Shown: one piece after another, positions 1,903 through 58,304 of the stretch
Layout: every line of letters starts with the position of its first letter
Numbering within the stretch: the first letter of the stretch is position 1
Origin: Mizuhopecten yessoensis
Lineage: Eukaryota
Length of the DNA: 64,000 nt
Assembly: GCF_002113885.1 (NCBI RefSeq)
Contig: NW_018404536.1
Coordinates: 142,705 to 206,704, forward strand
Reading direction: 5' to 3'
Notes under the pieces: generated by a model
Databases searched by the model: none
What the model was told of the DNA's origin: nothing
The model's input: only the letters and a program-made list of their open reading frames with translations
Translations under genes and position numbers: made by a program

Positions 1903-3906
1903 TCTGACATAGGGATCAGGCATCTTGGACCGCAGATCTCTCATTCTCAGATCTCGACATTTGATGACCTTCACCAGAAGGAGACTGCGTTTGAAATCAT
2001 ATTTGAAGGAAAGTTGAATTTCTCCTCTGACGTCCTCCGTTACTTTCATCATAGTTGGATCCAAAGTCTTGTATAACCCTTTCAGTAACTGGGTGTTTTT
2101 CTGGAGAATGATAGTCATACAATAATGTAACATTCGTCAATTCTAAAACTTACTGATTGAAAAAAAATTACATTCAATATTAGACTTGAACATTGAATAA
2201 ATTATCAGTAAATAGGTACCAAGGTACCTGAGAAATGCCGAGGAGTATGGTGTTCTGTATATTAAAAGTCACCAGCAATTACCCAGCAATGTAGTGTATA
2301 ACAGTAGAACACTGTTTCTGTCACTTTGATAAATTAGTAACTGGCCTTCAATATCATACTACATTTTTTTTAAATTAACTTTATATGAAAATTCCGAAAT
2401 AGGTTTGGTTAAAATAATGTAATGACATTTTAGTTGTTTTATGTTTATACACAAAAAAAAGGTAATTCAATCAATAAAGTCAATTAATTATTATTTACAA
2501 AATATTGTGAATCTAGGGTTTAGAGTATTGGGAAGGGGAGGTAAAGGGTGCAAAGTTCATTTCAAAAAAATCCTCTTTTTTATTTAAACAAGAGGCCCAA
2601 TGGGCCTGCATCGCTCACCTGGTATAAAGCTCACACTTGTAACCTTAAAAGTGATCTAAAATAAAGCTACAGGCAAAATATCAGTATTTATTATTAAAAT
2701 TCATTCAAAAGACCCTGTTATTTTTTTTTAAAACATTTCACCCCTGTGATTGAAAGTCGAACAAAGTCATTATGTTGAACAAATTTTATAGCCTTTCATC
2801 TCAGGATGCAACTTGCAAAGTATCAACATCCTGGGACCCATGGTTATTCAGAAGAGGTCATTTAAAGATTTTAAACAAATTTGACCCCTGTGACATTGAA
2901 TATAACTCAAAGTCATTCACTTTAACAAACATAGTAGTCCTTGATCCCAGCATGCTACTGACTAAATATCAACATCCTGAGCCTTTTGGTTATTCAGAAC
3001 AAGTTGTTTAAATATTTTGAACATATTTGCTCCTTGTGACCTTGCATATGATTCAAGGTCATACATTTAAACAAACTGGGTAGCCCTTGATCCTAGTATG
3101 CTACTGACTAAATATCATCACCCTGGGCATTTTGGTTATTCAGAAGAAGTTGTTAAAAGTTTTTAACATATTTTATGCATGTGACCTTGAATATGGGTGA
3201 AGGTCATTTATTCGAACAAACTTTGTAGCCCTTTATCTCAGCATGCTACTGGCCAAATATCATTACCCTGGGCATTTTGGTTATTGATAAGAAGTTGTTT
3301 AAAGTTTTTAACATATTTGACCACTGTGACCTTGAATATGGGTGAAGGTCATTCATTTGAACAAACTTTGTAGCCCTTCATCTCAGCATGCTACTGGCCA
3401 AATATCATATCCCTGGGCAGTTTGGTTATCGAGAAGAAGATGTTTAAAGTTTTTAACATATTTGACCCCTGTGACCTTGAAAATGGGTGAAGGTCATTAA
3501 TTTTAACAAACTTTGTAGCCCTTCATCCCAGTTTGCTTTTGACCAAATATCGACACCCTAGGCCTTTCGGTTATTAAGAAGAAGTCGTGCCAGGTGAGCT
3601 AAAAAACTTAATTTATTTAGAAATGATCTTTTTATAATTTTCAATGTATTGTCCTTTATTGTTATCATTTTTTTTATCATTATCATAAACAAGAAGTAAG
3701 CCTAATGTAGTAATGTAGATATGTGGTTTACACCGAGTGCCTACCATGTTCTCGTCGTGTTTGTCCCAGCCTTTCACAGCAACAACTTGGTTGTGATCTG
3801 CCTTTGCTGTCATCAAACGTGATAACCCATAGATTTTCTGTGGATTTTGCCGAACTCGGCCCTCTTCCACATCTTTTGATGAGGAGTGTGACTGATTTCC
3901 ACCCAT
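1903..3906 (-). CDS. C2-domain (synaptotagmin-like) protein, partial: first two coding exons; gene continues toward or past the left window edge
   Basis: Exons 3906-3745 (MGGNQSHSSS...DENM, donor gtaggc) and 2100-1903 (acceptor ttctccag, KNTQ...GEIQLSFKYDFKRSLLLVKVIKCRDLRMRDLRSKMPDPYVR, donor gtaagt) join in phase 0. GEIQLS-Y...L-VKVI-C-DL...DPYV is the start of a synaptotagmin-type C2A domain. A possible next acceptor lies at 3-5. Confidence 0.8.
2586..3605 (-). mobile_element. Non-autonomous Helentron-type (HINE/DINE-1-like) element with an internal ~145-147 bp tandem array
   Basis: Ends are AACAAGAGGCCCAATGGGCCT...GCTCACCTGG and CCAGGTGAGCTAAAA (sub-TIR plus 3' stem-loop). About 5-6 tandem units (GACCTTGAATATGGGTGAAGGTCA recurs at 3183, 3328, 3473). 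Same family as 45379-46683. Confidence 0.8.
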
Positions 3907-14145: not shown

Positions 14146-15757
14146 TTAGCTCGCTGGGTCCAAAGGACCAAGGTGAGCTTATGCCATACCGTGGCGTCCG
14201 TTCGTCAACTATTTCTTTAAACGACTTCTTCTTAACCACTGATTGGAATTTAACTAAATTTGACTGGAAGCATTCATATGTGGTGGGGATTCAAAATTGT
14301 ACAAATGGGGGGGTTGACCCTCCAGGGGGCTGAGGGGTGGGGCAAAAAGGGGTCAATTTGGCAATATTGCTTTAAGCGAATTCTTCTCTGGAACTAAGAA
14401 GTGGATATTGACCATATTTGAATGGAAGCATCCCTAGGTGGTGGTGTTTCAAAATTGTACAAATGATGGGGCTGAGGGGCGGGGCAAAAAGGGGACAATT
14501 TGGCTATACTGCTTTCAGCGACTTCTTCTCTGGAATTCCGAGATCGATATCGACCATATTCGACTGGAAGCATCCCTAGGTGGTGGGGATTCAAAATTGT
14601 ACAAATGGTGGGGCTGAGGGCGGGGACAATTTGGCTATATTGCTATAAACGACTTCTTCTGTAGAACCATGCCATGGATATTGATCATATTTGGTTGGAA
14701 GTATTCATGGGAGGCAGGGATTCAAAATTGAACAAATGGTGGGACTGACCCCCCGGGCTAAGGGGTGGGGCCAAAAAAAGTGTCTTTCTTGGAAATGGTT
14801 GAGATCCCCAGCATATAACCATGGTATACAATTGCTGAGTATAAAGAGAAGAATGCACATTTGCTTCCAGGATGGCTATAGGGTCTGGCCCCACCCTTGG
14901 CCATAACTTTAAAACTGTTTAGATCCCCATCCAAAAACTATATAGACAAATGCTGGGCATAAAAAGACGAATGCAGTCATGGTATCAGAATAGACCCAGG
15001 GGTCTGACCGATCCCCTAGGGACCTAGTTTGTTGGTCACAACTGGGAAACAGTTGAGAGCCCCACCCTATAACGGTATATACAATTGCTGAGTATAAAGA
15101 GATGATTGCACATATGCTTCCAGGATGGCCCTTGGGAATCAGCCCCACCCTTGGAGACTTAACCCCTGGGTCATAACTTCGAAATGGTTTAGATCCCCAC
15201 CCCAAAACTATCTATACATTTGTTTGGCATAAAAAGATGAATGCAGTCATGGTATCAGAATAGATCCAGGGGTCTGACCGATCCCCTAGGGACCTAATTT
15301 GTTGGTCACAACTGGGAACCAGTTGAGAGCCCCACCCTATAACGGTATATACAATTGCTGAGTATAAAGAGATGATTGCACATATGCTTCCAGGATGGCC
15401 TTTGGGACTCAGCCCCACCCTTGGAGACTTAGCCCCTGGGTCATAACTTTGAAACGGTTGAGATCCCCAGCCCAAAACTATATATACAAATGCTGGGCAA
15501 AAAGAGACAAATGCAGTCACCATATTACACTTGATCCTGGGGTCTGGCCACACCCCTAGGGACCTGGTTTCTGAGTCAAAGCTTGAAAACAGTTGAGATC
15601 CCCACCCCATAACCATACATACAATTGCTGGGCATGAAAGATCTAATACAGATATGCTACAAGGTTTGGCCTTGGGGTCTGGCATATTCCCTTGATCTCA
15701 TTTGGAGAATGTTTTGTCATGATTGCTTTGGTATCCAGGCCCTCTGGGCCTCTAGTT
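14146..15757 (+). mobile_element. Helentron-type (HINE) element with two different internal tandem arrays
   Basis: 5' TTAGCTCGCTGGGTCCAAAGGACCAAGGTGAGCTT (sub-TIR/IR), then a CGTC-type microsatellite, ~130-150 bp units, 270-bp units (ATGCAGTCA at 14971, 15241, 15511), and a 3' stem-loop AGGCCCTCTGGGCCTCTAGTT. Confidence 0.8.
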
Positions 15758-24036: not shown

Positions 24037-27000
24037 TCAGCTTTGCTTGGTTTTAAGTTCGCCCCTAAATTTTAAAATGGCTTTGGTCTTTGAGCCTGGT
24101 CTATCCAGGTTGATGGCGTGACCACAGCGGGAAATGATGTCCACAGATTGGCAGTTTGGCAGCTTTTCTTGCAGTACCTTCACTCCTGATACATCTATCA
24201 CCTACAAGTACAAAGACAAATTATTATTTTCCATTTGACAAAGTAACACCTTTCCTATGTTCCACGTAACCAGACCTATCAAAAACAGCATATACTGTTG
24301 AACTGACATCAAGACTGTGATGTCATAAACAAATGGCCTGATGAGACAATACATTCAGTCAGTTCAGTAACATGGGCACATAATGAATAGTTACTTTTTT
24401 GTAATTATCTCCCCTTTCTGGCTTTCATACACTTATAATATATAATTTATCATATAAAAAATACTTAAAAAACAGAGAGAAAAAGTGTTAACTCAAACAG
24501 TGGAAACAGAGTGGTTTTCAGTGATTGGCCTGCTCCCTGATAGCCCTTTCTGTAAATATTTATCATTTGAATAACATTCATGGTTTCCTTTTTTACCTGT
24601 CTCACCGATTCAAATTACTGTGTAAGAAATGTTAAAGTGTTATCTCACGAATATATTGAAAACTCCATATGCCACAGATTATTAATATTATCTTGGAAAG
24701 TCTATCATTAAATTGAAATATAATTGGTATACACTTAAAATATAAACGTGTTAACAGTAAGACTAGCTTAAAAAGTAGAACAATAGGCCTGATGGATCTG
24801 TTAATTAGTCTACCAGTGCAACACTTGTTCCAATATATAAGAAATGTGCAAAACATGCAGACCTTGTGTGACCTCATGCAGCTATTGGCCTCATTCTTTA
24901 TTTGTACATTAGCACAATTTGTGTTGTTGTTTACATTGTTTTAAGATTCCTATAAATAATGCGCAAGGTACAGATTTATCTGTTTAATAAGAGAAGAAAT
25001 ATATTTTGCTTAATTCATGCCAGTGTGATTTGAAATATGTTAGATACGTAGAAATGTCACTTGAAACAACTTATTCACAAAGATTTAAAGTCATGAACTT
25101 CCCAACAGCAGTTACATATCTTGTTTCTTCAAATGTTTGACTGGGCCATCTACTTAAATCCCTTGCACATTTTACACAAAAACAAATAAATAAATCACAC
25201 AAAACAGAAGGGACTTTACTGTTCAAGTGCTTAAAAAGACAAGTACAGAGTTATCACCTTGTCAACATTGTCTAAAGCTTGAGCTTCAGGGGAGAATGAA
25301 TCTGCTGATATCCCTATCCATGATTGTATGAGGAGATTAATGTGGGGCCTAGCAGACTGGGGTTTTCCTTAGATATGTCTTCTGCCTTCAGGATATTGGA
25401 GCAACCAAAATTGATCTGCTGCCCAAATGGCAAAACTCGGGACCTCTGTATTTTGTCTTCACTATACTAATTTTACTGCTCTTTAGTTTTTGCAGTATCT
25501 CCCTTTGAATTTATAGTTAGTCAGGTGTCAAATAAATGTGACCGGTAATTTAATGTCTTGTCTATTACAAAGTCCAGGTTATGACATTACAGTGATAAAG
25601 CACTTTAAAGTAGCCCTGAATTGGCCCTGTTATCTGTTCACTGTTGACAATGTCTCCATATATGACATTATATAAAAAACAAGAGTACCGCGGGGCGGAA
25701 CAATATACACCCGTCCAATGCCATATAGTGGTATAAACTTTCTTACATTGAAATAAGATCTGCATCATTCTAAGAGTGGTTAGCTGACATGCTATAAAAA
25801 TGTAGGAAAAAAACTCCGGATAAAAAAAATCAAATACTGAAATGAACAAAGGGCAATAACTTTTGCAAAAATCGTCGAAACAAAATTCTTTTCAAGGAAA
25901 CACAACAACATATTATGATTATGAAGCCTACTAAGTTTTAAAGAAATCTGTCAAAAATGTAGGAGGAGATCTCCGGACAAAAAACAAATAATGAAATGAA
26001 CAAAGGGCAATAACTTTTGTAAAAATTGTCGAATCAAAATTCTTTTAAGGGAGACACAACTTCACATCATGATTATAATGTATACAAAGTTTCAAAGAGA
26101 TCCGTTGAAAAATGCAGGAGGAGATTGCCGGACAAAAATCAAATACTTAAATGAACAAAGGGCAATAACTTTTGCAAAAATTGTTGAATCAAAATTCTTT
26201 TATGGGAGACACAACTTCATATCATGATTATAATGTATACCAAGTTTCAAAGAGATCTGTTGAAAAATGTAGGAGGAGATTGCCAGACAAACAAACCATA
26301 CCATAATACTCCCGTCAAATTTGACGGGCGTATAATAGTAAGCTGTTGCAAGGACAGAAAACCCTTGTATGTAAATTAAACCAAAACCAAGAGTTCCATG
26401 AATTACCTGGTCTTCCTCGCCCCATATAAGCTGGCTTGGTACAGTGATCTTGTGGGCTGTGTTCTCTAATATTGCTGCATATTCCCAGCTGGCAAGGGAC
26501 TTGAACACTACAAAACAACCATGCTCACTTTAAGAAACCACACATCAACTGATGAAAAATTGCAAACTATTGAATATTAAACACATCCCAATTCTAACTG
26601 CTAGACAATGAAGATTTCTAATATTAAAATGATTTCATAGATATAAAGCTTCTATAAATAGGTTAACAACATTTTAACTCATTCACCCCTGAAATTTATC
26701 AATGAACTATTCCAACCTTTGAATTGGAAGGGTTCAAATGTGTCTTTAGGGGTGAATGATTTAATTGACCAAACCAAGATATCACCATGCATGTCTATCA
26801 AAGCTGGAAAATTCAGTGACCCTCGAGTTTGAATCACCATTGTGATTTCACATATCAATCAAACATTGTAACGTCCCAATAGGCTCACAGGAAAGTAACA
26901 TCCCTCATTCTAACTGGCATTGAACTGCTTAGAGCTTATAAAAAAGTTTTTACCATTTTGAATGTAAAGGTTTGCGAGAAATACAATCTATCCCTGGGAT

Positions 27001-36962: not shown

Positions 36963-37498
36963 TGTCACCCTGGTAAGATACTAGTTGCTTCCTACCGACT
37001 CGGCTAGGGAGATCATCTCTTTAGTTCATTCGGTAGAGCGTAAGCCAGATGTCCCGGGTTCGACTCCTAGCGGAGGATAAATAATGACCTCTGTTACATT
37101 GGCATCCACCTAGGGACCCGCTAGATATGACAAAAATACTCAGCGATACTTGCAAAGGAACAGCATTGACCACCTGGAAAACTCTGTGACAAGTTCTTTC
37201 CTGGAGGTACTCCCATAACATGAGAGGCCGCTGGTCGGCCGTTTTTCAATCATATATATGATTTTGCCGACTGTTACGCGGCGCCTGTCAAAAGTTTTTC
37301 CCCGTGTAAAACCTCTAACATTGTTAGAGTATCCCGGAGGGGGAGTATGTCGCCCTGTTAAAAAACTAGATGCTTCCTACCAACTCAGCTAGGGAGAATT
37401 TCTCTTTAGCTCTTGCGGTAGAGTGTAAGACTAGTAAGCCAGAGGTCCCGGGTTCGACTCCTAGCGGATGCATTGAAAAAATAATGAACTCTGTTACA
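36963..37498 (+). mobile_element. tRNA-containing TRIM family D, full length
   Basis: LTR1 36963-37098, PBS TGGCATCCACCTAGGGAC, PPT GGAGGGGGAGTA at 37336-37347, LTR2 37348-37498 containing TAGCTCTTGCGGTAGAG...CT-AGT-AA...GGTTCGACTCC (tRNA-Thr(AGT)-like). Perfect TSD TTGG. Confidence 0.9.
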
Positions 37499-38220
37499 TT
37501 GGTTTTTCTGTTATTTTGTAGTTTTGTCAGAATTACTATTAGTTACTATATCTATATTCCCAGACTTGACTTATAGTTATTGCCATTCAGTTCAGTTAGA
37601 GTTAAAAAATCCTGATCCTTAATGCCCACTCAGTTTAAACACCAGTGTGGCCATGCCATTGTGAGAGTATATACAAAAGAATAGGATATAATTACAACAA
37701 CTTCAAAAAAGCTTCACAGGGCTCTGCAGGTTTATTTCAAAAGGACACTGATAAATGAATAATAATAAGACACCCAGTGATTCCACAGACTTTATTGGAA
37801 AATTGTGAGAGGACTACAGCATTTAGTTTTGGTTGTGTTCAGTTGATGGACTTATTTTTTTTCTTATACATTATTCTTAATTTCTTTTAAGTTTTCTTCG
37901 TATACTTTCTAAAAAACTAGTCCCCGGGGAGGAGATAACTAATCATTTACGAATGTACTGTGTATATATACATTTCAGGTATCAGTCATCCTTATGATTA
38001 AAGATATAAAACTAGGAAGATGTTGACTCTCATTTATACGTGGTTACTGAAAGATATTTCTTCCAACATATATTTCAATTGACAGGTGTATATGCATGCT
38101 TTGAACTTGTTGAAGTTGTTATTATGGAGAAGATATGATTTTAAAGTCTGCTTTGACTGTTTTAAAGGAATAATAAAGTGTACTTGAAGAGGACAGCCTA
38201 AAGACTCTACACCCGTCGAG

Positions 38221-44200: not shown

Positions 44201-47200
44201 GTTACAGGAGAAAATTTTGTTACCACAGTGTTAATTCTAAAGGGGTGTTATTTCCTTTTTTCGTTATCATAAAAAAATACTGTTACAGGAGATACTTGTT
44301 TATCATGTTCTTTTAAAGGAGGATAATTTCAATTTTTCATTATCATGTAAAACCACTGTTACAGGAGATATGTTGTTACAACAGTGCTACTGAGTATGAC
44401 ACTATTTTATGAGAGGATTGTTTGATACAACTATGTTACTTTTAGACTGATGATTTGTATCCTATGAATGTTACTGTATTCGAAGGGGCGCTTTGCTACT
44501 GTCTTAGAATTTGTTTCATCCTCAAATTCTGTCCTTTTCTTTTCACAGAACATGGTTGCTCCAGGTGATGTTGATGAAGAATTGGAGCAGGAGACATCTG
44601 AAGAATGTACCAAATATGGTCGTGTCATAAAATGTGTCATATTTGAGGTAAATATAACACCTGCAATTGCTCCGTATCATAAGAGAAGCTAGGATTCTGT
44701 ATAGTGATATCATGATTTACCTAATTTTGAACAATCTTCTGAATTTTTTCACAAATCTTCCCCATGATCTTTAGTTAGGAAAACTACGGAAAATTTGATG
44801 AGAATTGGTTTATATTTTTTTGCTAAAGGGAAATTTTAAAGCGGTTGCTGTAATTTGGAGATTTTATATATCAGTATATATACTGGTTTGGTGGTAGGGC
44901 AACCAGATAAGTGATGGCAAGATTATTACACTAACGAGGCTGAATATTAAGACACCTGGATTAGTAGTGGCTTTATCAACAAGGCTGGAGTGAGTGTAGG
45001 GAAAAGATTTTAAACTGATGCTTATCACACGTATGCATAGTACAAAATAGTGGGATTTTAAAAAAAAAAAAAAATTCGGAATATTAACTTCGATTATCTA
45101 TTTTTAATCATAATGGGATTTACAATTGGGAAACATATTCCAAAGATTATTCATTTATGATAAATCATCAGAATAACAAGAAAATCTTTACCCTTAGATT
45201 CCTGAATGTGAGGAGGAGGAGGCAGTGCGGATATTTCTGGAGTTTGAAAGAGTAGACTCAGCAATTAAAGGTTTGTTTGGACAACTTATCATTTTATGCT
45301 CGGTTTCAAAATTAAATTTATCAAAGTTACTTAGAGCTGTTCCAGAAATAAGCATATGGAAAGGGTGGGAGGCACTTTTTAGCTCACTTGGCCCTTAAGC
45401 TTATGCCATGGCGTGACGGCCGGCCGGCATCAACTTTTCACTTTAAACAACTTCTTCTAAATAACCAAAATGCCCAGGATGATGATATTTGGCAAATATT
45501 ATGCTGGAATTTTGTTCAAATGAATGACCTTCGCCCAATTTCAAGGTCACAGGGGGGTCAAATAAGTTTAAAAACAGCTTCATCTAAATAACCAAGAGGC
45601 ATAGGGTGTTGATATTTTGGCCAGTAGCATGCTTGGATAAAGGGCTACCAAGTTTGTTCAAATGAATGACCTTCGCACATATTCAAGGTCACAGGGGACA
45701 AATATGTTAAAATCTTTGAACAATTTGAATACGGTAACAAAAATCTTCAGGGTGATGATATTTGGTCAGAAGGATGTTGGGATGAAGGGCTACCAAGTTT
45801 GGTCAAATGAATGACCTTCACCCATATTCAAGTTCACAGGGGTCAATTGTCTTAAAAACCTTTAAATAACTTCTTCTGAATTACTGAAAGCTCCAGGGTG
45901 ATGATATTTAGCCAGCAGCATGTGGAGATGAAGGGCTACCCAGTTTGTTAGAATGAATGACCTTTGCCCATATTCAAGGTCACAGAGGTCAATTGTCCTT
46001 AAAACCTTTAAACGACTTCTTCTGTTTAACCAGAAAGTCCAGGGTGATGATATTTGGCCAGAAGGATATTAGGATAAAGGGCTACCAAGTTTGTTAAAAT
46101 GAATGACGTTTGCCCATATTCAATGTCACAGGGGTCAATTGTCTTAAAACCCTTAAAACAACTTACTCTGAATAAACAAAAGGACCAGGATGGTGATGTT
46201 TGGCCAGTAGCATGCAGAGATTAAGGGCTACAAAGTTTGTTCAAATGAATGACCTTTGTCCATATTCAAGGTCACAGAGGTCAAAAATGTTGAAATCCTT
46301 AATTGACTTCTGATAAATAACTAAAGCATCCAGGGTGATTACTTTTTCATGTGAATGACCTTGACACACTTTCAAGGTCACATCTGGTCCATAGTGCATA
46401 CATCTAAAAGTCTACTTCTCAATAAACAAAAGGTATAGGGTGGTGATATTTGGCAAATTGCATTCTGGGATGAAGGGCTATAAAGTTTGTTCAACTTAAT
46501 GTCCATGTTTGACTTTCAATGTCACCGGGGTCAAATGTGTTTAAATCATTTAATATGTTCTCCTGAATGACTTAAAGTCAAGACACTGATATTTTGCCTG
46601 TAGCTTTATTTTAGTCCACCTTTAAGGTTACATCTGTGAGGTTAATACCAGGTGAGCGATGCAGACCAATTGGGCCTCTTGTTCAGAAATGCCACCACCC
46701 ATGATATATTAAAAGTGATTTAATATCAGGAATGGTTCGCAGATCTGGTTTTAACTCCATCACCCATATTATGATAAGATCAAATAAAAATATATGAATA
46801 GGGTAGGAATGCAGGAAAAACATTTTATTTTTTATTTTATCTCCTGATTACCACTGTGAATGTTAGAAATAGGTTATTATTTTAATCAAGTATGAATGAC
46901 ACCAAACTAAATGTATCTTTTTTATGCATGTAAAATAAATACATGAATAAAAATTCCTAGTCTTTGTGTTGAGCAGCTGGCTCACAGGCTCACGTTACAA
47001 ATGTCTGAAATACACATATGCTATACTGATACGGGTCACAACACACATATGTTTATGTGTGTTGTGACCCGTATCAGTATAGCATATGTGTATTTCAGAC
47101 ATTTTTAACGTGACCCTGTGGCTCGCTCGAACAACACATGTACAATGCAGTAAATTACTATTTGATCCACCTAAATGTTTATGGAATAGCCAACATCATT

Positions 47201-48640: not shown

Positions 48641-49290
48641 TTAGCTCACCTGGTCCGAAGGACCATGATGAGCTTATGCCATACCGCAGCGGCCATCGTC
48701 TGTTTATCGTCGTCTTCCGTCCATCAAATTTTCCTTTAAAACGCAACTAGTCCTGAATGGCCAAGTAGATTTTGACTAATTTGGTCTGGAGCATCCTTAG
48801 GCCAAGGGGATTCAATTTTGTATAAACAATGGTGTGGACCCCTAGGGGGCAGAGAGGCGGGCCCAATTGGGGAAATAGAGGTTAAACCTTTAAGATCATT
48901 CTTTTACCGTAGGGATTAAGGGATTTTATCCTAATTTAGTCTGGAGCATCCTTGGGGCCAATGGGACTCAATTTTGTACAAACGGTGGGTGTGACCACCC
49001 TGAAGGGCAGAGAGGCGGGGCCCAATAAGAGATATAGAGGAATAGCTTTAATATCCTTCTTTTGTTTGGATGAAGCTATTTTGAACAGTAGCATCCTATT
49101 TGGAAGGGAAACCAATTTTGTATAAATGGTGGGTTTGAAACACATGGGGGCAGAGGGGCGTGGTCTAATAATGAAAATAGAAAATAGCTTCAAAATCCTT
49201 TTTCTGTAGGAATTGCATGATTATGTCCATATTTGATCTAAAGCATCCTTGGATGAAGCAAACCTAATTTTGTATCAACGGTGGGTCTAA
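48641..49290 (+). mobile_element. 3'-truncated Helentron-type element, related to 14146-15757
   Basis: TTAGCTCACCTGGTCCGAAGGACCATGATGAGCTTATGCCATACCG, a CGTC microsatellite and ~155-bp units. Confidence 0.7.
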
Positions 49291-51396
49291 AACCAAAAAT
49301 AACCTCATCATTTCAGAGCAGTGGATTTCCATGGGAAATGGTTAAAAAATTGTTTACAGTAATGAATTCTTAAAACAATGTTTAGGTAATTATAAAGGTT
49401 TGGTAGGGGTACTTAATAAGACAGTTTCTATGTACAGTACTATAGGGAGTGTTATTAGTCAAGATCAAAACCCAACAAATTATTGATGTACCATCAATGT
49501 TCAAGCATTCAGGTGCAGAATGTCAGTCCATTGAGTATTCTTGGTCAACTCAAAGTTTTTCTTCGGTGTAAAACATGAGCAACCTTTTCACAATGTTTCA
49601 CAGTCGCATACTCTCAAAGGTCTAGGTCACTGTAAGATTAAAGGTCAAATTATCTTATTGCTAATCTGGTCAAGACTTAATACAGAAGAGCTCATGATTA
49701 CATCACAAACCATTCCTGTCTTAAACTCAAGTTCACACAGCAAGGGTCAAAGGTTGAATAATTTAATTCTTGTCGGAACAATAACTTGCAGGCCTGAATA
49801 TGAATTGATGAAACTTTATGACTATACAGTAAATTTTGTATCAATAAACCTTGTGTAACCCCACGAAATCAAGTCAGAAGTCCAAACCATTATAAAGCTT
49901 GTCAGGAACAGCTGAATTATGTCATTTACAGCTCTTCATGTCTATTCTAAACTTGTCATGAATCAGTCTAATCATTGTCCAAGCAATGATTTTGCTACTG
50001 CTGAACCATGTTAATAAATTCCATTTATGAATGTATGAGGAGGACCAGACCAGACAATGCATTACAGTAGAGATCATGTGTTGCTTTAAAACATTTTAAC
50101 AAATAATTAAGTGTTTTGTCAGTTCCTTAAAACCATCAATATTACTTTGCACATAATTAAATTATAAGAATTATAAAAAAAGTATAATATAATGATTTTG
50201 AAAGGTTCAACCTATTTTATTGTTGAAATGAAATTATAAATACTTTCAGATCACAATCAATAGTTCACAGTGTAAGTCAATGGGGATTTTCTTTAAAACA
50301 TGAACATTAGAAGAGAGTACTTCAATACTCTAGCATATTCACCTGCAAGTACATTATATGATATCAGACTTGGTCAGTGTACAGATGTTCTAAAATGCAG
50401 ATTTGCAAAGCTTCAATTTTATCAATGAAAACAACTTTTCCCCATGATGGCCATATTGTTTATAAACTTACAATTCTAGGATACCTTTTTTTTGGCTTTA
50501 TGTGAATCGCAAAGACCAAGTCATAATTCATCAAAAATTGATTACAATATAAAATGAAACAGAAACATATGTTACCTTTAACATGAAAAAATTAACAATA
50601 CAGAATAACATGAGGATGGGAGTAGTTTGTAAATGAATTCATATGGAAACGATGAATTATGATACACATTACCTTAACATTAAGGTAAATTGCATTTATG
50701 CACACAATCTTTCTTATATCTCTAAATCCAAAATACTTAACATTCATTATATGTAAATATTCTTATATATGTGACTTCACATTTGACTTGAAATAAACAT
50801 CCATTCACTTTCATGCTTCAGCCACACTAGTACTCTTGCATCCCTGTATAACACATTTACACTATAATATTGGGGGTTTTTTTTGGTGTTTTTTTACAAA
50901 AGTAATTCAATGCTTACTTAAGATTGGTATATTTATATATATATATATACATGTAAGTTATATTATCAGTACGTGTCTGTTCTATAGAATAGGAAAACTC
51001 CACCTCCAGTTTATATTCAAAATTCCAACTGAGAAGAGAACAAAATGCCCGGTATTTACAAACAGTTAAAATCAAAACACACATTTATTTTTTATTCAAA
51101 TCTCATAAAAGCAAAAAATAGTAAGATTAAAACTACTGTATCTGGTTTTTATATTGTCAGACATATCTCTTTTAAATATTTTTTGCACTATTTGTAAATA
51201 CTGTACATGTGGGAAGTAAATATTAAGAAGAATTAAAGCCTTCACATCATATCTATTTCCAGCTCTCAATATACATAAATAAGACATCATATAAATAAAT
51301 GTCTCTCAATGGCAATTGAGTGCATTAGCACAGTAAAACAGAATACTTAAAACCACTGTACAACAAAAGAACAAATACATGCATTAAGTAAGAAAT

Positions 51397-51492
51397 AAAT
51401 TATCAGTGATTAAGCTACAAAACATCAGAAAATCTTTACTTCCATAGAAGTTTACAAGATTTTCGTCATACTGTTGTTTCACTAACAACTTT
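51397..51492 (-). promoter_or_regulatory. SECIS element (type II) of SELENOK
   Basis: Minus-strand RNA: AUGA-C-GAAAAUCUU-GUAA-ACUUC(UAUG)GAAGU-A-AAGAUUUUC-UGAU. AUGA/GA kink-turn core (51469-51466, 51427-51424), 9-bp helix II, conserved AA(A) at 51453-51451, apical mini-helix, and a lower helix AAGUUGUUAGUGA/UCACUGAUAAUUU. AATAAA pair downstream at 51096-51084. Confidence 0.92.
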
Positions 51493-51713
51493 GTAGTCTT
51501 AGCACTCGCCACATCAAGTTACAAGGAGTAGAATAGATCAGGATTTTAATATTACTGCAGATATTTTCTTCTGTTAGCCAGAGTTTATATGGATGCCCAG
51601 CACCTTCTGAAACTCTGCCTAAACTTTTATAAACAGTATATAAAATTAAATTAAATGAGCATCAGAGATGTCCTGAAGGTCCTCGAGGATATGCGTATAT
51701 GTTCTGCTGAGGT

Positions 51714-52270
51714 CCTGTTAGATGTCCTTCCGTAGGTTTGTAAGATGTCCTCCTGTAGGTTTGTGAGATGTCCTCCTGTAGGTTGGTGAGATGTCCTCCT
51801 GTAGGTTTGTGAGATGTCCTCCTGCAGGTGTGTGAAATGTCCTCCTGCAGGTTTGTGAGATGTCCTGTAGGTTTGTGAGATGTCCTCCTGTAGGTTTGTG
51901 AGATGTCCTTCTGTAGGTTTGTGAGATGTCCTTCTGTAGGTTTGTGAGATGTCCTCCTGTAGGTTTGTGAGATGTCCTTCTGTAGGTTTGTGAAATGTCC
52001 TCCTGTAGGTTTGTGAGATGTCCTCCTGTAGGTTTGTGAGATGTCCTTCTGCAGGTTTGTGAAATGTCCTCCAGCAGGTTTGTGAAATGTCCTCCTGTAG
52101 GTTTGTGAGATGTCCTCCTGCAGGTTTGTGAGATGTCCTTCCACAGGTTTGTGAAATGTCCTCCTGTAGGTTTGTGAGATGTCCTTCCACAGGTTTGTGA
52201 GATGTCCTCCTGTAGGTTTGTGAGATGTCCTCCTGTACTTTGTGAGATGTCCTCCTGTAGGTTTGTTAAA
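51714..52270. repeat. 23-bp minisatellite, about 24 copies, in the SELENOK 3' region
   Basis: Unit GTAGGTTTGTGAGATGTCCTCCT. Its reverse complement has no stop codon, which explains the spurious ORFs 51651-52190 and 51662-52144. Confidence 0.95.
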
Positions 52271-52383
52271 TGTCTAGGATTTTGAAGATATTTGTGTGAA
52301 GGTTCTTCGGGGTATCTGGGAGATTTCCTCCTGGATTTCTGTAAGTTTCGGTATCTACTCAGTATAACTTAATGTGTGGATTT

Positions 52384-52430
52384 ACACTCGACTATGGTCT
52401 CCCATAAAGGGAATCAACACAGCCGAGTGT
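52384..52430 (-). promoter_or_regulatory. Stem-loop immediately after the SELENOK stop (SRE/proximal stem-loop-like)
   Basis: ACACUCGGCUGUG-UUGA-UUCCC(UUUAU)GGGAG-AC-CAUAGUCGAGUGU: 13-bp lower stem with two G-U pairs, starting 9 nt after the Sec UGA. Confidence 0.7.
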
Positions 52431-55400
52431 TTACCTTCCTCATCCTCCGCCACCCATTGGTGGGGCACTAGGTCCTCCTAAAATGATAGATGCAGTAACA
52501 TGCATTAAATGTAATCCAATAAATAGTTGTATACATAGTATACATGGTTTATTTTACCGTATAATTTAATGCTGTTAATTATGTGATTATAATAGCCATA
52601 ACAATACAAAAGACAATGCTTACAAGATACTGTTGTACAAACTTTTTTAAGTTAACATACTTAAAAGTTGAACTTTTCATTTCATTGTTGATTTTTTGAT
52701 AAACAAAATGTACAAGTCCTGGGATTTTTAATGACGCCCAAGATAAAAAAATATTTTTTTTATAATTTTCTGTATATGTTTTTCAGAAATTCTAAATTTA
52801 ATGATGTAAAGTTCATGCAATCAGAAGATTTCTCTTTGTGTAGGTAACTTGAACGTGAGGTGGAATTGTCGACATAAACTTACCTCCACCGCCTCTAAAT
52901 CCACCCATTCTTCTCCTTGGAGGGGGTGGGGGCCTGAAGAAAACATGCATCAAGGTCATTTGATCACTTGAAATACATATTTAACATACATGTATTTACA
53001 ATTTATAACATGCTGTGGGTTACGTATTTAAAAGAAAGAAATGTACAGAAGTAACAAATATAAACCATCAATTAAGAAACAGTCAAATTTAAAAAGAGGA
53101 ATATTATTAAAGTATAGAGGTGGTACTCCTTATTCCCCTGTTCACTTCTATTTTACTACATGTACATTACTGTACTGGTAATATAAAATATTCACAAAAG
53201 ACTTGAGTACATGTAAATATACAGTGTATATGATTATAATAAGGAATGACTAACAAACTAAATAATAAAAGTATTACTACTGAACATGAACAGCCAGTAA
53301 TTGAGAAGTTTAAAACATACTATGGGCCATTACCCAGTTTTCAACTATTACAATGAGCCAGTTTCTATATATAAATCTACATGAAATCTTCCTAAATTTA
53401 ACAGGTCATTCCTATCTTGAATGCAAACATGGAAACCGTCCTTCTTTATCCCTGGTTAATGTTTGTGCACCTCAGTGTTCATTATACACACACTTGATTA
53501 TGTGTTATAACATTTCTTCTAGAAATACTGGTGCAATACTAGCCACTCACCCCTGTCCTGATCGGTAGTCGGTCACGTGAGAGTTACCTTTCTTTGTCAT
53601 ACTGGGCTGTAAATTAAGTATTATATATATATGTAAATATATTGGAAAACTATAACAGTAAAATTCAGTGGTACCGAGTCAGAGTGACATAAACACATAA
53701 CATGAAAGATCTGTATAATAATCAAGCAGATTTACATTTACATGACACCGGGTTGGTTTTCTTTAGAACTACATTGTTTGATACATGAAGTATTCCGTCT
53801 TTGCGTATTGCAGAGTTACATGTATCTTCTCTTGTGAGCAGGTATTGATTGTTACGTCATTTGTTTGTGTGAGAAAATTACATCGTTTTCTCAAAAATTG
53901 ATGACGTTACTCTCACAAACAAATGACGTAACAATCAATACCTGCTCACAAGAGAAATAACTCTGCAATATGCAAAGATGGAATAGAGCTTTACATTAAT
54001 TTTCATTAATTAAATTCGCCTTTTGTAAGATATATGTTGGATAAACAACTATGAACATGTACACAATAATTTGATTTTATCAATTTATGTGTTCTATCAT
54101 CTGTAGTTTTAATATATATCATGAAGGATCAACTAAGAGTATATGGTATATAATCTACAGTCTTTTTTTCAACACACGGACATGTATTATAATCTGTGTC
54201 TTTAAAAAGCTTTTAAGCGTATGAATATACTTACTGACACCAAAGTCTGGAAGCTGAAAAAAAATATGAAGCATGTTGGATCATTGAAAAATAAACTGGT
54301 AACCTGTTAGCATTAGAATAGATAATATATATATATATAACACCACATAGTGGAGTTGTACCACCATTGCCATTCGCAAGTTTTTATATGTTTATAGTTA
54401 TAGACTTTTTAAATTTCCAGGGATTATCAAGAGATCATGGATGTTTTGTGGTGAAAAAAAATACATTGTTCAACATTTTAGTACTTACAATAGTACAATG
54501 AAATTAATTAGTCCCCAAAACATTTCTGGAATGTAGGACAGTCTCCATGGTGACTGTGAGTCGACCACATTCCCTGTAACAAAAAGTCATATTTTGAAAT
54601 TAAAATCTACACAGGAATTCATATATATTTATTGTGTTACATGTTCACAACACTAGTATATATATGTACATATGTAGTCAAGCATGGTATGCACATCAGT
54701 TTACTAATCACTGCTCTACCAGGTGAAATATGGAAATTCATTTAAGCCGAGTTTGTATTCACCACTGTAACTGTTACATATATACCTTCTCATGGAAAGA
54801 ACCATTCATTTGAGTAAATAACTTAATACAATCTATACAATGTTTGAGGAATTAGATTATCGTTCAAAGTGCACAATTCCTTTCATTGGTGCAAATTAAA
54901 TGATGTCTCTGATATAAGGAGTCTGAGGTCATTTCTCAAGCACCAAAATTAAGGGCTTAAAGCTGAATCTATAAAATACAAGTGACAAGTCCAATACTTT
55001 ACCAACTAATATCAATTACAAGGAAAGTCTTTCTTGGTTCACCCCTGCGACAATGTAATTATCAATCATCTTAACTGAGATTGCATTTCTTACTTTCAGT
55101 TTATATAGCACTCTATGTATGCTGCCACTTTTGTTAATTTAATAAGTGTATCTGCAATATGTCTGACGCTTGGTAGTCCACTTCAAATAACATTTTACAC
55201 AGTTTTAAATAATTTCTTCAGGTGCAAAAAAGTTTCGTGATTATAGGAACTCAGAAATAATTAAGAAACATTCCTCTGTTCCTGTGAATTATGATCTATT
55301 AAATTATAATTCTACACTCCATTAGATCGGTCACTGGTATTATAGGCTACTAACCCGAGTTTCCTCTGGCCCCACACTAGCTGCAATAACATAGCCTCTG

Positions 55401-56311
55401 ATGATAGGACTTTTTTTATATATATATTGCCAGGTCCAGTACACTCTGCCGATTGAGCTATATATAATATATATAACTGATCTATCTGAAATAGGACTTT
55501 TGAGCTATTTTCATGTGATTTTCTTTTTAAGGAAAACTTAACAAATTTGCTTTTAAAAGAAGATTTTATCATTAGGTTGATAACAAAAGACATTAAATAT
55601 AAGTTTTCTTTTTTAAGAATATTGTAAAAAAGTCGCAAATTTTGCATTTATGAAAAATGATTTTTTTTTTATAAATGTATGCTTTTTGTAGTCAACATTA
55701 CCATCAACATTGTTTTATGCGACTTTGTTTCAATTTAATGGAAATTTGAGTGTACTGGACCTGATTGCGTCAGACTCAGAGGCCGGATATTAATATTAGT
55801 ACTAGCCAACACACCAGCCATCTATCTGTCAAAATGTCTAAGTCTGGTGTCAAGGCCAGATGAAACTCAGTTTACATAGGCTAACAAGCTAGAAATAAGA
55901 CCATAACGTCTACTTAGTGTTTTTCCATCCATTTCCAGCTATTTTTAGAATGTGAAATGATCACAGATCTCGAAGGTTCGCTTTCAATTTCATTACAGAA
56001 AAAATATAAAGATATCTAGTCATTCTGAAAATGTATCGATACAAAGAAATTTACACGTTTGCCAAGTATACTATTTGCTTTGGTTAACTGTTTGATATGA
56101 AAGAAAATGATGAAGAAATAAATGAGGTCGTCGTGGACCGGAAGGGTAAACATTCACTGTTTTATCTGCATACAGTGTACAATGACGATAATTTGGTATA
56201 TCTTACAATTACAATAGTTGACATACTCAAACTGTGACAGATGTTTCGCCCTTATATCAGAGATTTCACTGACATAAAGTATTTTCACTTACCTTGTGAC
56301 ACGTAAACCAT
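52431..56311 (-). CDS. SELENOK: Selenoprotein K, 91 aa, Sec at residue 89 (TGA at 52442-52440)
   Basis: Exons 56311-56293, 54573-54489, 54253-54235, 53606-53551, 52933-52884, 52477-52431 (276 nt, all GT-AG) give MVYVSQGNVVDSQSPWRLSYIPEMFWGLINFIVLFFQTLVSPSMTKKGNSHVTDYRSGQGPPPPPRRRMGGFRGGGGGPSAPPMGGGGUGR*. This matches the SelK signature MVY-S-G...SPWRLS...FWG...FF-TL...GGUGR, and a SECIS is present. Confidence 0.96.
53791..53985. mobile_element. Fold-back MITE in SELENOK intron 3
   Basis: TATTCCGTCTTTGCGTATTGCAGAGTTA...TCTCTTGTGAGCAGGTATTGATTGTTACGTCATTTGTTTGTG pairs with its reverse complement ending GCAAAGATGGAATA. Confidence 0.85.
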
Positions 56312-56764
56312 CTTGTTTATTTTCGGCTTGTCACACGTCCTGGTCAATCTAAAGCTTCAACTTTCGAACCAGGAATAAGGCAAATAAAGCGTCTTTAAAA
56401 TCCCGATCGAATAACATTACAGTAGTTAGGCAAATAGGGATGAAGTTCGGCAAATCATGACTAGGCCTACTAGTACACTACTAACTTTCATGCAACGAAT
56501 CTGTAGCACTTGTAAATGTCACTTTTGTAATAGAAAATTAACATTGATATTTCACAAACAATCGTTAAAATTAGTTGACCAGAATTACAAAGGAATGTTT
56601 TTTTTAACATATGAAATCTCCAATATACTTAAAGCTAACATTACAATATGATAAATCAAAGCTTTGTATTTTTTCTTATTTTCGATCATTTTACCAGTCC
56701 GGAGAATTTCCCCGAGAATTGTTCATTCCACAGGTATATTTGGGCCTGAACTAACAAGTTCAGA

Positions 56765-56923
56765 GTAGTTTTACCTGTTTTAGGAGTTTAGATCGACTTT
56801 CGGTAAAAATGACACCCCAATGATTATATATATAAAAACGACACCCAACACCCCCAATGATAACCATTTGGGGTGTCATTTTTACCGAAGGTCGATCTAA
56901 ACCTCTAAAACATGTAAAATTAC
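56765..56923. mobile_element. Fold-back MITE upstream of SELENOK
   Basis: TTTAGATCGACTTTCGGTAAAAATGACACCCCAA versus TTGGGGTGTCATTTTTACCGAAGGTCGATCTAAA. Confidence 0.8.
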
Positions 56924-57463
56924 CACGAACGCATTATTTAGCTGTAACAAATTGCCAGGTCCCTGTGGTTCATTCCTCCATTTCAGACACAGTCGCAAAA
57001 CCTTTGAGGTCGTATAGATTCTAACCCAGTCTCGCGTCTTTGCATACCCCACTTCTGCTGATTAATGTAGTATATGTGGCTGGAGATGATATTTCAGCAT
57101 TTTTTTTATACATAAAACATATAATATCAGGTATATACTAGCCCGAGTTTTCAGACTTAAACATTTTGACAGATAGATGTCCACACCTGACATCTATATA
57201 TACCGTCACTATACTCAAATCGGGACAGTACCGAAAACGGGACACTTATGGGAGAACGGCCCAATAAACTGTCATTCAAAGCAAAGAAGTACATTATGTA
57301 TACAGTTTTCATTTCATGATACCTTTCTGATAACTTAACTGTATGTAAGCTTTAATGGCTGCTGATTGTCGATGCATGGACAATTTGAAGGTAAGAATAA
57401 TGACCAAAACAAAACTTTCCCGATTTACGTGCCGTGCGATTTACGTGTCATGTCTGAAGTCTG

Positions 57464-58177: not shown

Positions 58178-58304
58178 NNNNNNNNNNNNNNNNNNNNNNN
58201 NNNNNNNNNNNNNNNNNNNNNNNNNNNNNNNNNNNNNNNNNNNNNNNNNNNNNNNNNNNNNNNNNNNNNNNNNNNNNNNNNNNNNNNNNNNNNNNNNNNN
58301 NNNN

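What the first reader, a model, noticed from the sequence alone, without database searches (positions are those of the whole stretch)
51397..56311. Selenoprotein K gene invisible to the ORF track, with in-frame UGA and a type II SECIS
Seen: six exons of 19-85 nt give a 91-aa SelK ending GGGG-TGA-GGA-AGG-TAA, with a canonical SECIS about 970 nt downstream and before the AATAAA pair. Known: UGA plus a 3' UTR SECIS specifies selenocysteine, and SelK ends in U-G-R. Automated annotation would probably stop the protein at the UGA or miss the gene.
Basis: partly seen in the sequence, partly recalled or inferred. Interest (0 to 1): 0.7.

Follow-up and report, generated by a model that had tools for sequence, protein, structure and literature searches.

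The report
Ordinary scallop selenoprotein K gene
This is an ordinary scallop selenoprotein K gene: its spliced message likely reads a late UGA "stop" as the amino acid selenocysteine, and the public protein record stops at that UGA, three residues short.

Summary
Six minus-strand exons (19/85/19/56/50/47 nt, all GT-AG) give 91 codons with TGA at codon 89, then Gly-Arg-TAA. An Rfam SECIS_1 hit with a form-2 apex starts 970 nt behind the TGA. Transcript-like contigs support all five splices and cover the SECIS. Six of seven distant homologous loci keep TGA at the same place. The genome has tRNA-Sec and SepSecS.

The gene is already annotated: XP_021346478.1, 'selenoprotein K-like [Mizuhopecten yessoensis]', equals residues 1-88 exactly, so it is cut at the UGA. 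22 of 25 database hits end the same way. This is a textbook selenoprotein with a routine annotation error, not a hidden gene. Selenocysteine insertion itself is inferred.

Corrections and extras: contigs run 700-900 nt past the 'AATAAA pair'; a 23-nt minisatellite fills 559 nt between UGA and SECIS; two studies show an extra, repeat-like 5' leader that the assembly does not explain. No earlier scan note on this gene turned up.

The parts
56293..56311 (-). Coding exon 1 (19 nt from the ATG at 56311)
   Evidence: GT donor; joined to exon 2 across 1719 nt in 4 of 4 runs and 1 of 4 runs
56312..56361 (-). Transcribed 5' UTR part of the ATG exon; holds an in-frame TGA at 56359-56357; genomic AG at 56362-56361
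   Evidence: Covered to 56361 in X2 and X12 and to 56341 in X15; frame
54489..54573 (-). Coding exon 2 (85 nt), start of the hydrophobic helix
   Evidence: Pfam SelK_SelG 36.5 bits for this exon alone; covered by contigs
54235..54253 (-). Coding exon 3 (19-nt micro-exon)
   Evidence: AG/GT ends; contigs of 4 of 4 runs leave the genome at 54235 and go on with the start of exon 4
53551..53606 (-). Coding exon 4 (56 nt)
   Evidence: Joint 52932-53550 in 4 of 4 runs
52884..52933 (-). Coding exon 5 (50 nt), Pro/Arg/Gly-rich
   Evidence: Joints on both sides in 4 of 4 runs
52431..52477 (-). Coding part of exon 6 (47 nt) with the Sec codon and the TAA stop
   Evidence: joint 52476-52883 in 4 of 4 runs, and contigs run on into the UTR to 52217/52208
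52440..52442 (-). In-frame TGA, codon 89, predicted selenocysteine
   Evidence: same position is TGA in 6 of 7 homologous loci
51716..52274 (-). 23-nt minisatellite, 24.5 copies, inside the 3' UTR between UGA and SECIS
   Evidence: Tandem Repeats Finder; covered by contig pieces
51414..51480 (-). SECIS element, form 2 (AUGA at 51469, unpaired AA, extra 4-5 bp apical helix, GA)
   Evidence: Rfam SECIS_1 36.8 bits; fold; best of 129 scored candidates in the genome
51084..51096 (-). AATAAA pair (51096, 51089), possible proximal poly(A) signal
   Evidence: contigs read through it
50216..50221 (-). Distal AATAAA, candidate for the farther 3' end
   Evidence: one contig (X5) ends at 50196, 20 nt behind it; weak hint only

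Best explanation
This is a six-exon, spliced selenoprotein K (SELENOK) gene of the Yesso scallop whose UGA at codon 89 is likely read as selenocysteine, giving a predicted 91-residue protein ending Sec-Gly-Arg. Shown: exon structure, splicing, a SECIS-shaped hairpin in the transcribed 3' region, a conserved UGA, and tRNA-Sec and SepSecS in the genome. Inferred from the standard eukaryotic pathway: SBP2 binds the SECIS kink-turn quartet, eEFSec brings Sec-tRNA to the UGA, and translation ends two codons later at UAA; when recoding fails the 88-residue form is made. Inferred from mammalian SELENOK: an ER membrane protein anchored by the hydrophobic stretch (about residues 18-45), with a disordered Gly/Pro/Arg tail that binds SH3 partners such as the palmitoyl-transferase DHHC6, and a Sec that stabilises the acyl-enzyme intermediate.
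For: Model and splice sites. One 600-nt contig of X2 has exon 6 at record 1-260 and exon 2 at record 387-470, the exact spacing of the predicted splice. Pfam SelK_SelG 97.7 bits. One locus in the genome. TGA at the aligned codon in 6 of 7 homologous loci, 5 followed by Gly-Arg-stop and 1 by Gly-stop; one database homolog has Cys-Gly-Arg there (P0020). SECIS above the Rfam cut-off on the same strand. The 970-nt spacing lies within the mammalian range of 207-5207 nt, mean 872 (PMC3316567, passages). tRNA-SeC with anticodon TCA and SepSecS exons. SelK is listed as a selenoprotein in the mollusc Lottia (PMC3473315, passages). Human SELENOK has Sec at 92 of 94 (10.1101/2021.05.15.444318, passages). 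DHHC6 role: PMC5789314, abstract.
Against: No direct evidence of selenium in the protein. The SECIS passes the cut-off by only 1.8 bits. No covariation test was possible, and only 2 of 7 homologous loci gave a SECIS_1 match, both below the cut-off (24.0 and 23.2 bits). No single contig links the UGA to the SECIS, because the minisatellite breaks them. An ATTAAA at 51550 lies just upstream of the SECIS and would give SECIS-less messages if used. The runs are only guessed to be RNA, and no DNA control was obtained. The DHHC6 function is carried over from mammals, untested here.
Confidence: 0.95

Rival explanations
1. The UGA is the real stop: the scallop makes an 88-residue SelK without selenocysteine, as the public record has it, and the hairpin is a relic or chance.
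For: XP_021346478.1 is 88 aa, and 22 of 25 database hits end at the same Gly run. The SECIS score is marginal. Even human SELENOK often terminates at the UGA when overexpressed.
Against: The three codons from the UGA on are conserved as U-G-R-stop in 5 of 7 distant loci, which a true stop would not need. The SECIS has an intact quartet and AA. Regular annotation programs are known to mis-handle TGA in selenoprotein genes.
Confidence: 0.03
2. The gene makes two message classes, and many messages are polyadenylated upstream of the SECIS (ATTAAA at 51550, or within the minisatellite), so that 3' end choice switches between Sec and truncated protein.
For: ATTAAA at 51550, about 70-80 nt before the SECIS.
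Against: Contigs cross 51550 without a break in 4 of 4 runs, and no loose end is listed there, although 373 loose ends were not shown. Contigs drop rare variants, so this does not exclude a minor form.
Confidence: 0.05
3. The locus is a silent or decaying copy, and the functional SelK lies elsewhere.
For: The assembly is fragmented (82,659 contigs), so a second copy could be missed.
Against: Only this locus matches. The frame is intact, the splice sites are canonical, and spliced contigs appear in runs of six studies. Identity to the Pecten protein is 93%.
Confidence: 0.01

Closest known systems
XP_021346478.1, selenoprotein K-like [Mizuhopecten yessoensis] (P0024)
   Same: Identical to residues 1-88 of the model; its contig has the length of the window's contig, 244,580. 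It is this gene.
   Different: The record ends at the UGA and lacks Sec-Gly-Arg.
Animal SELENOK/SelK family (Pfam PF10961 SelK_SelG), including Pecten, Crassostrea, Mytilus and Owenia members
   Same: About 90 aa, conserved N-terminal motif and hydrophobic helix, Pro/Arg/Gly-rich tail, Sec third from the end; 93%, 85%, 69% and 82% identity over 88 aa.
   Different: Nothing qualitative in the protein. The 3' UTR here carries a 559-nt minisatellite; whether relatives have it was not tested.
Human/vertebrate SELENOK
   Same: Sec two residues before the C-terminus (92 of 94 there, 89 of 91 here) and a SECIS in the 3' UTR.
   Different: In vertebrates an intron lies right behind the stop codon and the whole 3' UTR is in the next exon (PMC3316567, passage). 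Here contigs run from the stop into the UTR without a joint.
Eukaryotic form 2 (type II) SECIS (Rfam RF00031)
   Same: Non-Watson-Crick quartet, unpaired AA, additional apical helix with a short loop; form 2 is the most widespread form and also the form of Drosophila SelK (PMC2673426, passages).
   Different: None seen; the score is just above the cut-off.

Membership tests
SELENOK / SelK | Sequence match to the family profile PF10961 | tested here: met
   97.7 bits against cut-off 23.3, profile positions 1-86 of 86
SELENOK / SelK | Small protein with one hydrophobic helix and a Gly/Pro/Arg-rich tail | tested here: met
   91 aa; 19-residue hydropathy windows of 1.4-1.6 over residues 18-45; 79% Gly+Pro+Arg in residues 59-91
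SELENOK / SelK | In-frame UGA two codons before the true stop, conserved in homologs | tested here: met
   Codon 89 of 91; TGA at the aligned place in 6 of 7 loci, the seventh diverges earlier
SELENOK / SelK | SECIS in the 3' UTR of the same message | tested here: inconclusive
   SECIS on the same strand and covered by contigs in 4 of 4 runs, but no single contig bridges the minisatellite
SELENOK / SelK | Host has Sec machinery | tested here: met
   tRNA-SeC (TCA), 77.3 bits; six SepSecS exon matches on one contig. SBP2, eEFSec, PSTK and SPS2 were not searched.
SELENOK / SelK | Selenium actually incorporated at the UGA | not testable with these tools
   Needs 75Se labelling, mass spectrometry or a reporter
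SELENOK / SelK | ER membrane location; DHHC6/ERAD partners | not testable with these tools
   Inferred from mammalian work
Form 2 (type II) eukaryotic SECIS | AUGA...GA quartet with a helix of about 10 bp above it and unpaired AA | tested here: met
   9 of 9 tested helix positions pair; AA begins 11 nt above the quartet
Form 2 (type II) eukaryotic SECIS | Additional apical helix with a short loop | tested here: met
   Predicted 5-bp helix (4 G-C/A-U pairs in the stem plus a closing pair) with a 4-nt loop; definition
Form 2 (type II) eukaryotic SECIS | Covariation across orthologous SECIS elements | not tested
   No close relatives' UTRs available; distant loci gave only 2 sub-threshold matches of 7
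Form 2 (type II) eukaryotic SECIS | SBP2 binding and UGA recoding activity | not testable with these tools
   Needs gel shift and reporter assay

The most novel reading that the evidence does not exclude
A repeat-derived 5' leader seen in contigs of two studies supplies an upstream AUG in frame with the SelK start, with a second in-frame UGA (56359-56357) eight codons behind it. Under the same SECIS this would act as a selenium-sensitive switch: a short upstream ORF when selenium is low, and a 24-residue longer, two-selenocysteine SelK when it is high.
Probability: 0.03. Interest if true: 0.55.

Novelty: already known. Interest (0 to 1): 0.12.

Why it matters
Little beyond curation. The public protein record of this gene, like most invertebrate SelK records returned here (22 of 25), lacks the last three residues, including the one residue thought to matter for function. 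Anyone cloning, modelling or doing proteomics on scallop SelK from that record would use a truncated protein. The corrected model and the SECIS position give a ready reporter test. The biology (UGA plus 3' UTR SECIS, SelK in molluscs) is established.

Tried and rejected
(1) Hidden or unannotated gene: rejected, the record exists. (2) Second copy or paralog: none beyond one E = 4 match elsewhere. (3) The exon 2 frame was too short for the word-indexed protein search; a profile-free search of the 33-residue frame gave 16 hits, one of which seeded. (4) No run is on record as RNA ('no RNA holder listed'); the runs are treated as transcript-like only because they skip GT-AG introns. X15, meant as a DNA control, was spliced too. 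(5) Contig depth is 4-5 times higher on the coding contig than on the SECIS contig in X6 and X9 but about equal in X2 and X5; the tool says depth cannot rank parts of a gene, so it is not used. (6) Spliced-leader trans-splicing for the extra 5' piece: considered and thought unlikely, since the X2 piece is 60 nt, longer than leaders I recall, and both halves of the 30 letters shown match genomic repeats. (7) Locating that piece in the assembly failed: 0 matches for the 30 letters at up to 1 mismatch, none in the window, and no match of 11 letters or more in the 38.6 kb fetched upstream. (8) The stop-free frames over the minisatellite (203-216 aa) are taken as a by-product of the repeat unit, not as genes; no protein search was run on them. 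(9) Rfam miRNA matches in homologous loci are far below gathering scores and are hairpin noise. (10) Four literature searches listed no paper on scallop SelK by title or abstract start; only listings were seen for all but five papers, and no supplements were opened, though the supplement of PMC3473315 should hold the Lottia SelK model.
Full report
1. Observation. The gene lies on the minus strand. Six coding exons at 56311-56293, 54573-54489, 54253-54235, 53606-53551, 52933-52884 and 52477-52431 (19, 85, 19, 56, 50, 47 nt) are separated by five GT-AG introns of 1719, 235, 628, 617 and 406 nt. They give 91 codons with a single internal TGA at codon 89, followed by Gly, Arg and TAA. Rfam finds one match at gathering level in the whole window: SECIS_1 at 51480-51414, same strand, 36.8 bits against 35. 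Its AUGA starts 970 nt after the TGA. The predicted fold has a helix above the quartet, unpaired adenosines and a short extra apical helix with a 4-nt loop; z = -2.77, 3 of 200 shuffles as stable. That is form 2 as defined in PMC2673426 (passages). A plain SECIS-like pattern occurs once in the window and 0.64 times on average in 100 shuffled windows, so the hairpin counts mainly through its place behind an in-frame UGA. In a genome-wide SECIS_1 search it was the best of 129 scored candidates out of about 18,995.

2. Identity. Exon 2 alone hits Pfam SelK_SelG (36.5 bits). A search seeded by a homolog returned 25 proteins of that family, among them P0024, 88 aa, named 'selenoprotein K-like [Mizuhopecten yessoensis]', XP_021346478.1, on a contig of 244,580 bases, the length of the window's contig. 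P0024 equals residues 1-88 of the model letter for letter and scores 97.7 bits on the Pfam profile. So the gene is annotated, and the record stops at the UGA. Of the 25 hits, 22 (P0024 included) end at the same Gly run, 1 continues Cys-Gly-Arg, and 2 end otherwise. The genome holds one such locus.

3. Is the UGA a Sec codon? Six have TGA at the aligned codon, five followed by Gly-Arg-stop and one by Gly-stop; the seventh diverges before that point. Only 2 of the 7 gave a SECIS_1 match, both under the cut-off, so conservation of the SECIS is not shown. The genome has a tRNA-SeC with anticodon TCA (77.3 bits; the three other loci checked were tRNA-Ser) and six SepSecS exon matches on one contig. 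SelK is listed among the selenoproteins of the mollusc Lottia, and regular annotation is said to mis-handle these genes (PMC3473315, passages). The spacing of 970 nt is ordinary: 207-5207 nt, mean 872, in mammals (PMC3316567, passages).

4. Transcript evidence. Twenty of 24 listed runs hold the 3' region; none is on record as RNA. I laid 7 of them. In one search, 4 of 4 runs skip introns 4 and 5 at the predicted ends and 1 of 4 skips intron 1. In one search, 4 of 4 skip intron 1, cover the 19-nt exon 3 and go on from it into exon 4. Intron 2 is not listed as a joint, but the 600-nt contig of X2 places exon 6 at record 1-260 and exon 2 at 387-470, which leaves exactly the length of exons 5, 4 and 3. 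Contigs cover the SECIS in 4 of 4 runs and run past the AATAAA pair at 51096/51089 to 50341, 50196, 50428 and 50396. A further AATAAA stands at 50221. No contig bridges UGA and SECIS, because a 23-nt minisatellite of 24.5 copies (51716-52274) breaks them. No DNA control was obtained. Contigs run from the stop codon into the UTR without a joint, unlike vertebrate SelK, where an intron follows the stop.

5. Mechanism. Shown: structure, splicing, conserved UGA, SECIS-shaped element, part of the Sec machinery. Inferred from the established pathway: SBP2 on the SECIS quartet and eEFSec with Sec-tRNA recode the UGA, giving 91 residues; failure gives 88. Human SELENOK has Sec at 92 of 94 and is often cut at the UGA when overexpressed (10.1101/2021.05.15.444318, passages). 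The scallop protein has a hydrophobic stretch at about 18-45, no cysteine, and a tail of 79% Gly, Pro and Arg. By analogy it is an ER membrane protein whose Sec helps the palmitoyl-transferase DHHC6 (PMC5789314, abstract); this is untested in scallop.

6. An unexplained extra. In X2 and X12 (two studies) the contig goes on past 56361 with 60 and 30 letters that lie nowhere in 54030-57000, the 30 shown being the same in both. These 30 letters are not in the assembly at up to 1 mismatch. Sixteen of them match the end of a dispersed repeat with short terminal inverted repeats, present at 37208-37345 and, by its flank, in 9 of 10 loci looked at. Thirteen match 58491-58479, inside another dispersed repeat (41 matches listed), directly before a GT. 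A splice from 58478 to the AG at 56362-56361 would be canonical but gives one G fewer than the contigs show, so the origin (splice on another haplotype, insertion or deletion allele) stays open. Read by hand, the leader holds three AUGs; one is in frame with the SelK start and meets a TGA at 56359-56357 after eight codons (frame). That is the basis of the novel case. It rests on one letter at the joint, two other runs start downstream of it, and a plain upstream ORF in a minor isoform is more likely.

7. Verdict. The thing itself is a known, single-copy member of a pan-animal family with the textbook recoding signal. Four literature searches listed no paper on scallop SelK, so the three-residue correction may be unpublished, but it is curation. 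The scan's own notes held nothing near this place, and the eight notes shown for a word search concern other genomes and families. Novelty: already known. Interest 0.12.

Noticed in passing
window 56361 (minus-strand 5' side) with 58491-58478: Contigs of two studies carry an extra 5' piece built from the end of one dispersed repeat and 13 letters of another that lies 2.1 kb upstream before a GT; the joint differs by one G from a canonical splice and the piece is not in the assembly. It brings three upstream AUGs, one in frame with SelK and closed by a TGA at 56359-56357.
   Followed up: partly
window 51716-52274: A 23-nt minisatellite (24.5 copies, 89% matches) makes up 559 of the 970 nt between the Sec codon and the SECIS; its length may vary between animals.
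   Followed up: partly
window 50196-51090: Transcript-like contigs extend 700-900 nt beyond the AATAAA pair, suggesting a longer 3' UTR that may end near the AATAAA at 50221.
   Followed up: partly
window 53780-53960 (intron 3): An inverted-repeat element of about 180 nt, very abundant in the laid runs (hundreds of contigs fit it), probably a high-copy MITE.
   Followed up: no
window 37208-37345, between 36963-37100 and 37348-37502: A short element with terminal inverted repeats beginning TA-CTCCC (Stowaway-like, label recalled) sits between two 79%-identical copies of a repeat that looks tRNA-derived.
   Followed up: partly
window 53599 (exon 4) and 51478 (SECIS flank): Run X10 has a variant that would change Met44 to Thr; run X9 has a variant at 51478, outside the SECIS core.
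   Followed up: no
window 58178-58304: A 127-base N gap flanked by (GA)n lies between the gene and the upstream repeat; its true length is unknown.
   Followed up: no
G000:C5588:1005923-1027621: Three sub-threshold SECIS_1 matches on one strand within 22 kb (31.6, 31.5, 25.1 bits), possibly a cluster of selenoprotein genes; another match above the cut-off at G000:C1046:1018692-1018756.
   Followed up: no
window 2766-3585, 14326-15641, 25825-26291, 45511-46284, 48776-49063: Several tandem arrays with units of 130-160 nt, likely satellite or Helitron-related repeats common in bivalves (recalled).
   Followed up: no
P0003: A 1567-aa database protein with 24 stretches matching the SelK exon 2 frame; not inspected.
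   Followed up: no
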